From Promethearchaeota archaeon (GTDB lineage: Archaea; Asgardarchaeota; Lokiarchaeia; Sigyniarchaeales; SOKP01): a stretch of 63,713 nt of DNA. The stretch is taken from the NCBI GenBank assembly GCA_016839585.1, contig JAEOTZ010000073.1, positions 1 through 63,713 on the forward strand, written 5' to 3'. Below, piece by piece: positions 227 to 63,386 of this stretch (position 1 is its first letter; the number at the start of each line of letters is the position of its first letter). The translations under genes and the position numbers were made by a program. Below the pieces are notes generated by a model. The model made no database searches. It was not told the origin of the DNA and saw only the letters and a list, made by a program, of their open reading frames with translations.

Positions 227-328
227 TGGGCCAAGGGAGAATCGAACTCCCGATCTCCCGCATGTGAGGCGGATATCTTTGGCGCTACATAATTAGCAAA
301 TTATCCTATACCACTAGATCATTGGCCC
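227..328 (-). tRNA. tRNA-Val(CAC) with a 30-nt D-arm intron (278-307)
   Basis: Acceptor GGGCCAA/TTGGCCC, anticodon arm TCCGC-CTCACAT-GCGGG, T-loop TTCGATT; removing 278-307 gives GGTAT|GATA, as in the intronless tRNA-Val(TAC) in this window. Confidence 0.9.
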
Positions 329-42324: not shown

Positions 42325-43540
42325 TTACTTTTGTTTTGATAAATACCTAATTTTTACAAGCAAATCTCTTAATTCCATTTTATCATTGTCAGGAGTAATG
42401 TATTTCTTTTTAACGCCCTCTGCGAAGGGAATTTTTTCTATTTTGTTTCCTTGGAGAGAGACCATATAACCAAATTCATTATTTAAAACTAATTTCATTG
42501 CTGCTAAGCCAAATCGCAATCCAAGTATGCGATCGAAACAGCTCGGAGTTCCAGCACGCATGGTATGACCAAGTACTACGCTTCTACATTCAAAATCTAC
42601 TCCATTTTTCTGAAACTCTTGCTTTAAATCATCTCTTAGGTTTAACTCGCTAACAATTATTTGCGACATATTCAATTTTACTAGTAACGGATTACCATAT
42701 GTATCTTTAGGTAACTTATCAATCGTTTCCTTAGATATTGTTTTAAAATCTCTATTTAAAGATTCTATATTTGGATATGCTCCTTCTGATGTAGCAATTA
42801 TATGATACTTATAGCCAGCATTAACTCTCTTTTTCAAAACGTCAATTATGTCTCTCTCTAAATTAAATGGTGTTTCTGGAATTAAGATTATATCTGCTCC
42901 AGCAGATATTCCACTGTACATTGTTAAAAAACCAGCGTCTCTACCCATAACTTCTACAATAAATACTCTCTGATGTGAACGAGCAGTAGTAGTGAGATTA
43001 TCAAGTGTATTAGAGGCTAATTGCACGGCACTCCAAAATCCGAATGTATAATGAGTTCCCTGCAAGTCATTATCAATGGTTTTTGGCACTCCTACTACTT
43101 TTGCATTGGCATATTTATGCATAGTATCAGCTACACCTAGAGTATCGTCTTCAGTTTAAAATAGAAACTATTTTAAAACTCCACCGATAGCTATTAAGGC
43201 ATCTATTCCTAATTCTTCAAATTTTTTAGCCAATTCTTTAGCTTTTTCTTCTTTTGAATTCACTCCTTTGAATGGGTTAGTCCTACTTGTATATAGAATT
43301 GTTCCACCAACAGTATGTAAATCATCATGTTCAGCAATATCAAGTGGAATTGTTTTATTTTCCAAAAATCCTTTCCAGCCTTTTAGAATTCCGATACATT
43401 CTATGCCTGCATCATATGCTTTTAACATTATCCCATAAATTACACTATTTAACCCAGGGCAGTATACGACAGTCAAGGAAAGTCTTGAACATGACTCCGC
43501 CGCCCGTTAAAATTCCTACTTTTTTTATTTGATTACCCAT
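42325..43540 (-). CDS. pfkA: 6-phosphofructokinase (PfkA family, probably PPi-dependent); three exons 43540-43495, 43463-43179, 43148-42325 giving 384 aa
   Basis: Spliced product reads VGILTGGG|DCPGLN...IGG|DDTLG...PKTIDND...EVMGR...LGHTMR; total 1155 nt. Confidence 0.9.
43149..43178 (-). other. Putative BHB intron 2 of pfk (30 nt, contains an in-frame TAG)
   Basis: Outer helix TATCG/CGATA, central GTGG/CTGA (one mismatch), bulges AG|T and AG|A, perfect 10-bp inner hairpin TTTAAAATAG/CTATTTTAAA. Confidence 0.8.
43464..43494 (-). other. Putative BHB intron 1 of pfk (31 nt, frameshifting)
   Basis: Central helix GCGG/TCGT, bulges AG|T and AT|A, inner CA/TG plus TCAAG/CTTGA, outer GGGCG/C(T)GCCC. 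Confidence 0.8.
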
Positions 43541-63284: not shown

Positions 63285-63386
63285 GCACCTGTAGCCTAGT
63301 TGGTAAGACGCCGGCCTTGAGTATTCAAAGCAACCAAGCAAGCCGGTGCGCGTAAGCGCTCGGGGGTTCGAGTCCCTCCAGGTGCG
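63285..63386 (+). tRNA. tRNA-Ser(TGA) with a canonical 37/38 intron (63322-63340, 19 nt)
   Basis: GCACCTG/CAGGTGC; CCGGC-CTTGAG|A-GCCGG; central helix CTTG/CAAG; long variable arm. Confidence 0.93.

What the first reader, a model, noticed from the sequence alone, without database searches (positions are those of the whole stretch)
43149..43178. pfk intron 2: 30-nt AT-rich perfect hairpin with an in-frame stop inside the GGDD motif
Seen: TATCG-GTGG-AG|T-TTTAAAATAG-TTT-CTATTTTAAA-CTGA-AG|A-CGATA, with a 5-bp outer helix, a 10-bp inner helix and a relaxed central helix (two G-U pairs, one G-A mismatch). Its sequence is unrelated to intron 1, suggesting independent gain. Inference: the weak central helix needs a broad-specificity EndA, which fits the non-canonical tRNA introns in this window.
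Basis: partly seen in the sequence, partly recalled or inferred. Interest (0 to 1): 0.75.

Follow-up and report, generated by a model that had tools for sequence, protein, structure and literature searches.

The report
tRNA-type mini-intron in Asgard phosphofructokinase gene
A 30-base insert with stop codons sits inside the active-site motif of the only phosphofructokinase gene of an uncultured Asgard archaeon, and comparison with about 70 related sequences indicates it is an intron cut out of the mRNA by the tRNA-splicing enzymes, which published work documents for only one other archaeal coding gene (cbf5).

Summary
On the minus strand, bases 43178-43149 are a 30-nt insert (in-frame TAG and TAA) that splits the Asp codon of the GGDD motif of a PfkA-family gene.

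- **Distribution:** the insert is always 30 nt at the same site in 7 of 45 pfk genes of the genus and in 28 metagenome contigs. All others read an uninterrupted GGDD.
- **Cut sites:** its last base is G, C, T or A, so only the cuts the BHB rule predicts (G|N...N|AC) restore Asp.
- **Gene integrity:** spliced in silico, every carrier gives an intact ORF, with dN/dS of 0.05-0.09.
- **RNA constraint:** the exon bases that form the helices are frozen in carriers and vary freely in non-carriers. Three stem pairs change on both sides.
- **Enzymes:** the genome encodes a catalytic EndA subunit with the broad-specificity loop, a His-less EndA partner, and RtcB.

No RNA data were available, so splicing itself is not shown.

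Earlier scan notes report the same kind of intron in other genes of this genome and in other Asgard genomes.

The parts
43495..43540 (-). pfk exon 1 (ATG ... GGC GGC GGA G)
   Evidence: It joins exon 2 to give TGGG-D-CPGLN, as in intron-less orthologues.
43464..43494 (-). pfk intron 1: 31 nt, frameshifting, relaxed BHB
   Evidence: Present in 8 of 43 assessable pfk genes of the genus. Alignment A2. Its removal restores the ORF.
43179..43463 (-). pfk exon 2
   Evidence: Pfam PFK profile positions 11-100; NCBIfam PFK_mixed positions 11-103.
43149..43178 (-). pfk intron 2 (the finding): 30 nt, in-frame TAG and TAA, splits the Asp codon G|AC of GGDD
43181..43189 (-). Exon bases forming the 5' strands of the outer helix (TATCG, 43189-43185) and the central helix (GTGG, 43184-43181)
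   Evidence: Identical in 7 of 7 carrier genomes and variable at synonymous sites in 36 non-carriers.
43143..43147 (-). Exon bases forming the 3' strand of the outer helix (CGATA)
42325..43148 (-). pfk exon 3 (AC GAT ACT ... stop)
   Evidence: NCBIfam PFK_mixed positions 105-323. Closest solved chain is a 6-phosphofructokinase, E = 6.7e-105.

Best explanation
Bases 43178-43149 (minus strand) are a bulge-helix-bulge intron in the pre-mRNA of the organism's only PfkA-family phosphofructokinase gene. The RNA folds so that exon bases TATCG and CGATA pair as the outer helix. Exon GUGG pairs weakly with intron CUGA as the central helix. A 10-bp intron hairpin forms the inner helix. This leaves two 3-nt bulges, AG|U and AG|A. 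The two-subunit splicing endonuclease (catalytic alpha with the L1/Crenarchaea-specific loop, plus structural beta) cuts after the second base of each bulge. RtcB then joins the exons to GGU GGA G^AC GAU, restoring Gly-Gly-Asp-Asp, and probably circularises the 30-nt intron. Unspliced mRNA can only give a truncated, inactive product. Shown here: the structure, its conservation, the unique frame-restoring cut sites, purifying selection on the spliced reading frame, and the presence of the enzymes. Inferred: that cutting and joining happen in the cell, and that EndA and RtcB are the agents.
For: - **Position:** the insert lies exactly between Pfam PFK profile positions 100 and 101-111. Orthologues without it read GGNGGNGAYGAY.
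- **Recurrence:** it is always 30 nt at the same site in 7 of 45 pfk genes of the genus found by protein search. It is also in 28 metagenome contigs in pfk context.
- **Cut sites:** the last intron base is G, C, T or A and the first is T or A. Only cuts at GGAG|N...N|ACGAT give GAC (Asp). Shifting by one base, or skipping ten whole codons, gives His, Tyr, Asn or Val. These are the cuts the BHB rule predicts. The same rule reproduces the 37/38 intron of the tRNA-Ser at 63285-63386.
- **Intact ORF:** in-silico splicing gives an uninterrupted 377-codon frame in all complete carriers.
- **Selection:** pairwise dN/dS among carriers is 0.05-0.09, with pS of about 0.5-0.7 for nearly all pairs. The five codons just after the insert differ among carriers only synonymously.
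- **Frozen exon bases:** five of six codons at the junction (ATC GGT GGA GAC GAT) are base-identical in 7 of 7 carriers, against 16% of codons gene-wide. Only 2 of 398 windows are as conserved. The same codons vary freely in 36 non-carriers. Flanks beyond these bases are as diverged among carriers as among non-carriers, 0.25 vs 0.24.
- **Structure:** on 26 distinct sequences, 90% of cells pair against 32-44% in slid registers. Three inner-helix pairs change on both sides (U-A to C-G, A-U to G-C, G-C to A-U). Loop and bulge columns vary.
- **Enzymes:** two EndA paralogues are present. One keeps Tyr/His/Lys and aligns through the loop region of the A. pernix alpha subunit; the other lacks the His. 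RtcB scores E = 2e-168. PMC5829648 reports the two-subunit EndA with the L1 loop in Asgard archaea.
- **Single copy:** pfk is single-copy in this 99%-complete genome.
- **Real in DNA:** metagenome contigs from two other studies span the insert without gaps.
Against: - There is no RNA evidence: no RNA run holds this locus.
- The central helix is weak. Its fourth position never pairs (G.A or G.G), and in variants ending CCUA or CCUG only two pairs remain. No enzyme assay shows that an Asgard EndA accepts this.
- Folding energy is not significant on its own.
- Covariation is modest: 19 of 500 shuffles reach the observed score. The outer helix could not vary in the metagenome set because the search pattern fixed it.
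- A naive genome-wide scan for BHB-like, ORF-restoring inserts gave no excess over controls, so the motif alone is not diagnostic in this AT-rich genome.
Confidence: 0.8

Rival explanations
1. The gene is a pseudogene, and the insert is an inactivating insertion scar.
For: There are two in-frame stops inside an essential motif, plus a second, frameshifting insert upstream.
Against: There are no other lesions. dN/dS among carriers is 0.05-0.09 although synonymous sites are close to saturation (pS about 0.5-0.7). The insert keeps its length, structure and position in 35 sequences whose coding flanks differ by up to about 30%. It is the only PfkA-family gene in the genome.
Confidence: 0.03
2. The ribosome deals with the insert, by stop-codon readthrough or recoding, or by translational bypass (hopping) as in T4 gene 60 or yeast mitochondrial byps.
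For: The insert is in frame (30 nt) and contains a hairpin. Stop-codon recoding has been reported in some Asgard lineages (title and abstract of PMC9723677, seen).
Against: Two different stops (TAG and TAA, or TAA and TAA) would both have to be read. Reading through or skipping ten whole codons would replace the first Asp of GGDD by His, Tyr or Asn in most carriers, because the last insert base varies. No matching take-off and landing codons flank the gap (GGA upstream, GAA/AAC/AAT/AAA downstream). The frozen exon bases match helix partners, which a ribosomal mechanism does not explain.
Confidence: 0.03
3. This is a split gene: the two halves are translated separately and assemble into an active enzyme.
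For: The list of open frames shows separate frames of 102 and 265 aa.
Against: The downstream frame would start at Met 43122 and lose DDTLGVADT, including both Asp residues of the motif. Yet those codons are under purifying selection in frame with the spliced junction, with synonymous changes only. No start codon is created at the junction.
Confidence: 0.02
4. The insert is removed, but not by EndA/RtcB. It could be removed by another RNA-level nuclease or ligase, or excised at the DNA level.
For: The central helix departs from the canonical 4-bp rule, and nothing here shows which enzyme acts.
Against: The cut sites required by the reading frame coincide with those the BHB geometry predicts. 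Both EndA subunits and RtcB are encoded. Metagenome contigs show the insert in DNA, and intron-less forms appear only in clearly different alleles, about 14% diverged.
Confidence: 0.08

Closest known systems
cbf5 pre-mRNA intron of Crenarchaeota (Watanabe 2002; Yoshinari 2006; Yokobori 2009, PMC2738675)
   Same: It is a short intron inside an archaeal protein-coding sequence, with a (often relaxed) BHB cleavage motif. It is processed by a hetero-oligomeric splicing endonuclease. It is present in some lineages and precisely absent in others, and is prone to mis-annotation.
   Different: It differs in gene (a glycolytic kinase rather than a pseudouridine synthase) and in phylum (Asgard/Promethearchaeota, by record titles). 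There are two introns in one gene, and the carriers are scattered within a single genus rather than forming clades. Splicing is not yet shown by RNA for this locus.
Archaeal tRNA introns, canonical and non-canonical (Marck & Grosjean 2003), including those of Asgard archaea (bioRxiv 10.64898/2026.10.13.758758)
   Same: The geometry and cut rule are the same. The tRNA-Ser in this window has bulge AG|U, central helix CUUG/CAAG and bulge CA|A. The enzymes are the same. The preprint reports repeated gains with an unknown route of arrival.
   Different: The host RNA is an mRNA. The exon half of the motif is made of codons, so it freezes synonymous sites. The central helix is weaker than in the tRNA.
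HAC1/XBP1 unconventional mRNA splicing in eukaryotes (IRE1 cleavage, RtcB ligation in animals); from established knowledge, with PMC3400036 listed
   Same: It is a spliceosome-independent cut-and-ligate removal of a short intron from an mRNA, at stem-loop sites, sealed by a tRNA ligase.
   Different: The endonuclease is IRE1, not a homologue of EndA. The motif is a pair of 7-nt loops rather than a BHB. The event is a regulated stress switch.
Programmed translational bypass (T4 gene 60; mitochondrial byps of Magnusiomyces); from established knowledge
   Same: A short insert containing stops lies inside a coding sequence that nevertheless yields a full-length protein.
   Different: Bypass needs matched take-off and landing codons, and the insert is not removed from the RNA. 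Neither the codon match nor a codon-wise skip fits here.

Membership tests
Archaeal BHB (EndA-dependent) intron | [quoted passage not shown] | tested here: met
   The bulges are AG|U and AN|A, four positions apart. The central helix is G-C, G.U (or G-C), U.G (or U-A, or U.U), and G.A or G.G. That is 2-3 pairs of 4, so this is the relaxed form.
Archaeal BHB (EndA-dependent) intron | Flanking helices: an outer exon-exon helix and an inner intron helix | tested here: met
   The outer helix is 5 bp (TATCG/CGATA) and invariant in 7 carriers found independently of it. The inner helix is 9-10 bp and 93.5% paired over 26 distinct sequences.
Archaeal BHB (EndA-dependent) intron | Cuts after the second base of each bulge give the functional product | tested here: met
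   Only these cuts restore GAC (Asp) in every variant and an intact 377-codon ORF. The rule was checked on the tRNA-Ser intron in the window.
Archaeal BHB (EndA-dependent) intron | The structure is maintained in evolution (covariation) | tested here: met
   Three pairs change on both sides, and eleven further pair types occur. 90% of cells pair against 32-44% in slid registers, and 19 of 500 shuffles reach the observed covariation score. The support is modest.
Archaeal BHB (EndA-dependent) intron | The host encodes a splicing endonuclease of a type that accepts relaxed motifs, and an RtcB ligase | tested here: met
   The alpha subunit (L001:1453-2058:-) has Tyr/His/Lys and the loop region aligned to A. 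pernix 3p1z_B. The beta subunit (L002:1438-2040:-) lacks the His. RtcB is in L023, E = 2e-168. Literature: PMC5829648.
Archaeal BHB (EndA-dependent) intron | The intron is absent from mature RNA (spliced junction or circular intron observed) | not testable with these tools
   No RNA run holds the locus, and only DNA contigs could be laid.
cbf5 intron family (homologous intron) | Located in cbf5 at the conserved position, in Crenarchaeota | tested here: not met
   The host gene is PF00365 phosphofructokinase, and the lineage is Promethearchaeota by record titles. It is an analogue, not a member.
Translational bypass element | Identical take-off and landing codons flanking the gap | tested here: not met
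   GGA lies upstream and no GGA/GGN lies at the 3' edge. A codon-wise skip gives His, Tyr or Asn in most carriers.
Phosphofructokinase, PfkA family (PF00365) | Full-length match to the family profile once the inserts are removed | tested here: met
   Pfam positions 11-100 and 112-276. NCBIfam PFK_mixed positions 11-103 and 105-323. PDB match at E = 6.7e-105.

The most novel reading that the evidence does not exclude
These 30-nt micro-introns are mobile, or at least site-selective. They would enter or spread between genes and species at a defined exon motif (GGN GGA G|AY), for example by reversal of the EndA/RtcB reaction followed by copying into DNA. Three observations are compatible with this. 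Both pfk introns sit at the only two Gly-Gly-Asp sites of the protein, in the same codon phase. Carriers are scattered over the gene tree (AU test p = 7e-6 against one clade). An identical 30-nt intron occurs in seven alleles whose coding flanks differ by 11-29%. An old intron with many precise losses and strong constraint explains the same data, and fits the positive correlation between intron divergence and exon divergence (Spearman 0.56).
Probability: 0.2. Interest if true: 0.85.

Novelty: new member of a known kind. Interest (0 to 1): 0.65.

Why it matters
In the papers I could search, endonuclease-dependent splicing of an archaeal coding sequence is documented only for cbf5 of Crenarchaeota.

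This case is a central metabolic enzyme of an Asgard archaeon, the group closest to eukaryotes. The enzyme apparently cannot be made unless its mRNA is cut and re-joined by the tRNA-splicing machinery, at two places.

- **Annotation:** such genes are called as fragments or pseudogenes, so metabolic reconstructions would miss glycolysis.
- **EndA substrate range:** the natural variants of a relaxed motif found here form a ready-made substrate series for enzyme assays.
- **Intron dynamics:** presence and absence within one genus, plus a shared exon context at both sites, give a tractable system for asking how such introns are gained and lost. The recent Asgard tRNA-intron preprint states that this question is open.

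Tried and rejected
- **RNA evidence:** The look-up of sequencing runs listed no RNA holder. Only Logan DNA contigs could be laid, and they cannot show splicing.
- **Thermodynamics:** z-scores of -1.6 to -2.1 for intron 2 and -0.6 for intron 1 are not evidence by themselves.
- **Repeat or mobile-element copies:** neither intron has another copy in the 3.45-Mb genome at up to 6 substitutions.
- **Genome-wide census, first attempt:** a BHB descriptor plus an ORF-restoration test gave 203 hits against 192-247 in frame-shifted controls.
- **Genome-wide census, second attempt:** a strict hairpin architecture gave 92 hits against 87-93 in displaced controls. Junctions between adjacent same-strand genes swamp the signal, so no count of such introns can be given. 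Both scans did recover this intron and one at contig C53:4382-4411.
- **Recent co-transfer of flanks:** rejected. Flanks outside the helix-forming bases are as diverged among carriers as among non-carriers.
- **Single clade of carriers:** rejected on the pfk tree. No species tree was built, so the number of gains and losses stays open.
- **Recoding of TAG alone:** rejected, because TAA is also in frame.
- **Pattern search in metagenomes:** about 50 of the 78 hits were chance matches outside pfk and were discarded.
- **Two calls failed** on a frame error and were repeated with corrected coordinates.

Full report
**What is there**

The window is AT-rich, about 29% GC. On the minus strand, 43540-42325 holds a PfkA-family phosphofructokinase gene broken into three open frames.

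Pfam PFK matches the middle piece on profile positions 11-100. It matches the last piece from position 112 on; that query began at the first Met, nine codons after the break. NCBIfam PFK_mixed gives 11-103 and 105-323 when the exons are cut at the proposed junctions.

The finding is the 30 nt at 43178-43149. Read in frame it gives GGA GTT TTA AAA TAG TTT CTA TTT TAA ACT GAA GAC, so there are two stops, TAG and TAA.
- outer helix TATCG/CGATA;
- central GTGG/CTGA, pairing as G-C, G.U, U.G and G.A;
- bulges AG|T and AG|A;
- a perfect 10-bp inner helix with a TTT loop.

**Is the geometry that of an archaeal splicing motif?**

I checked the rule on a tRNA in the same window. The tRNA-Ser(UGA) at 63285-63386 carries a 19-nt intron (63322-63340) at the canonical 37/38 position. 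There the anticodon stem is followed by CUUG, which pairs with intronic CAAG. Next comes bulge AG|U, and on the 3' side bulge CA|A lies directly before the stem.

The order is therefore outer helix, central strand, bulge with the cut after its second base, on both strands. The pfk insert has this order. Folding energies alone are unremarkable (z = -1.6 and -2.1).

**Comparative evidence**

A protein search of relatives found pfk in 47 of 54 species-level genomes of the genus. I fetched 45 pfk loci of the genus and 6 outgroup loci. At the GGDD site, 7 carry an insert: G000, G002, G009, G021, G053, G062 and G063. It is always 30 nt. The other 38 loci and all 6 outgroups read GGNGGNGAYGAY without interruption.

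An exact-pattern scan of metagenome contigs added 28 further copies in pfk context, again all 30 nt. About 50 other hits were chance matches outside pfk.

The first intron base is T or A, and the last is G, C, T or A. This removes the boundary ambiguity present in this genome alone. Only GGAG|N...N|ACGAT restores GAC (Asp). A shift of one base, or a skip of ten whole codons, gives Val, His, Tyr or Asn. These are the cuts predicted by the structure.

**The gene is alive**

After in-silico removal of the inserts, every complete carrier has an uninterrupted 377-codon frame from VGILTGGG to the stop. Pairwise dN/dS among the eleven genomes carrying either insert is 0.05-0.09, with pS of about 0.5-0.7 for nearly all pairs.

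The codons right after the insert (D-T-L-G-V-A) differ among carriers only synonymously. So they are translated in the frame set by the spliced junction. This excludes a restart at the next Met. pfk is single-copy in this 99%-complete genome.

**RNA-level constraint**

Among the 7 carriers only 16% of codons are base-identical. At the junction, 5 of 6 are (ATC GGT GGA GAC GAT), and only 2 of 398 windows reach this. In 36 non-carriers of the genus the same codons use ATA/ATC/ATT, all four GGN, and GAC/GAT. The frozen bases are exactly those assigned to the outer and central helices.

The next codon (ACN) and everything further out vary. Flanks of 45-150 nt are as diverged among carriers (0.25) as between carriers and non-carriers (0.25) or among non-carriers (0.24). 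The conservation therefore reflects selection on the fold, not a recently shared DNA tract.

On 26 distinct sequences, 90% of cells pair, against 32-44% when the 3' partners are slid. Three inner-helix pairs change on both sides (U-A to C-G, A-U to G-C, G-C to A-U). The other stem changes are mostly wobble-compatible, and the variation concentrates in the loop, the bulge bases and the central 3' strand. The covariation score is reached by 19 of 500 shuffles, which is modest support. The outer helix could not vary in the metagenome set because the search pattern fixed it.

**The machinery**

The genome has two EndA-family genes of about 200 aa.
- L001:1453-2058:- best matches the catalytic subunit of the Aeropyrum pernix heterotetramer (3p1z_B, E = 7e-36). 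It keeps the Tyr, His and Lys. It aligns through the N-terminal loop segment: ffgsPLginKPRleyFskPselSLIE against yyGqPLdveKPRgadFegPlrLSLIE.
- L002:1438-2040:- has Phe where the catalytic His stands in the Methanocaldococcus enzyme.
- RtcB is present at E = 2e-168.

PMC5829648 reports that Asgard archaea carry the two-subunit type with the L1 loop, and that only loop-bearing enzymes cut relaxed motifs. The weak central helix has 2-3 pairs, and its fourth position is always G.A or G.G. That fits such an enzyme but has not been tested on it.

**Lineage and DNA support**

The nearest public records are titled Promethearchaeota archaeon; a few carry other Asgard labels.

DNA runs holding the locus are marine-sediment metagenomes. 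Contigs from two other studies span the insert without gaps. Intron-less forms appear only in alleles about 14% diverged. No RNA run was available.

**History**

Carriers are scattered on the pfk tree, with 7 changes for 7 carriers. Forcing them into one clade costs 216 log-likelihood units (AU p = 7e-6).

Intron divergence rises with exon divergence (Spearman 0.56), which speaks for mostly vertical descent. Yet one identical 30-nt sequence occurs in seven alleles whose flanks differ by 11-29%.

The only two genus non-carriers that keep the carrier-type 5' flank (TATCGGTGGAG followed by ATGATAC; G023 and G044) sit beside carrier G053 at the unresolved base of the genus clade, and G023 is G053's closest relative by pS. 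This looks like recent precise loss.

An old intron with repeated precise losses, as proposed for cbf5 (PMC2738675), is the simplest account. Lateral spread is not excluded. No species tree was built.

**Rivals**

- Pseudogene: excluded by selection and by conservation of the insert.
- Readthrough or bypass: two different stops, the wrong residue in most carriers, and no matching take-off and landing codons.
- Split gene: it would lose both motif Asp residues, although their codons are under selection.
- Removal by some other enzyme, or at the DNA level: cannot be excluded without experiments.

**Relation to what is known**

The closest published case is the cbf5 intron of Crenarchaeota. My searches found no paper on such introns in Asgard coding genes. 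A recent preprint covers Asgard tRNA introns only.

Earlier notes of this scan (AI notes, not checked by me except where stated) report the same kind of intron in other genes of this genome and in at least 42 genomes. Some of them claim exactly spliced RNA. This intron is thus a further member of that set. It comes with an unusually rich comparative record but no RNA evidence of its own.

Noticed in passing
window 43464-43494 (-): pfk intron 1 is 31 nt, shifts the frame, and splits the Asp codon of TGGG-D-CPG. It is present in 8 of 43 assessable genomes of the genus, only partly the same ones as intron 2: four have both, four only intron 1, three only intron 2. Its motif is more relaxed. There is a 6-bp outer helix GGGCGG/CUGCCC, then either a 3-bp central helix with a 4-nt 3' bulge, or 4 bp with a slipped outer helix. 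One stem pair changes C-G to U-A.
   Followed up: partly
window 43495/43463 and 43179/43148 (-): Both introns interrupt the only two Gly-Gly-Asp tripeptides of the protein. Both are in the same codon phase and the same DNA context (GGN GGA G|AY), although their sequences are unrelated. This suggests a site preference for gain or for retention.
   Followed up: partly
L048:318-376:+ (G053): At the intron-1 site this species carries a 30-nt in-frame insert with stops TAA and TGA. Its sequence is clearly different, its loop is GTATC, and its central helix is a full 4 bp (GUGG/CCAU). It is either strongly diverged or a separate insertion at the same bond.
   Followed up: partly
L003, L010, L138, L166, L198, L199, L204: An identical 30-nt intron-2 sequence, including the loop and bulge bases, occurs in seven pfk alleles whose coding flanks differ by 11-29%.
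   Followed up: partly
window 63285-63386 (+): tRNA-Ser(UGA) has a long variable arm and a 19-nt canonical intron (63322-63340). ARAGORN missed this gene; Rfam found it.
   Followed up: yes
window about 227-325 (-): This is a tRNA-like gene with acceptor GGGCCAA/UUGGCCC and anticodon loop CUCACAU (Val-CAC). It has an insert of roughly 30 nt 5' of the anticodon stem, a likely non-canonical intron. ARAGORN missed it, and Rfam matched only the 3' 59 nt.
   Followed up: no
L004 (G002) and L025 (G062), pfk 5' end: These two orthologues have no ATG, GTG or TTG in frame between the upstream stop and the conserved IKK(V/I)GI. A Shine-Dalgarno-like AGGTGAT is followed by ATA or ATT codons, so the start may be unusual or there may be another small interruption.
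   Followed up: no
window 42325-43540 (-): The enzyme has GGDD and PKTIDND, where ATP-dependent PfkA enzymes have GGDG and a Gly before TIDND. From general knowledge, Asp and Lys at these two positions are typical of pyrophosphate-dependent enzymes. The best NCBIfam hits are 'PFK_mixed' and ATP-PFK models, below their cut-offs because single exons were scored. The closest solved chain is a 424-aa 6-phosphofructokinase (entries 44xa, 44xf, 9cir), E = 6.7e-105.
   Followed up: partly
genome contig C53:4382-4411 (-): My own scans recovered a second 30-nt insert with the same 1+9+5+9+4+2 layout and an ATATC loop. Removing it joins open frames of at least 300 codons on both sides. The pfk intron 2 of G053 and of two metagenome contigs (L141, L196) has the same ATATC loop.
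   Followed up: partly
L068-L134: Outside the Asgard group, the nearest PFK relatives at about 40% identity are from Lachnospiraceae and other Clostridia, and from Bathyarchaeia. This hints at a bacterial-type enzyme shared by transfer.
   Followed up: no
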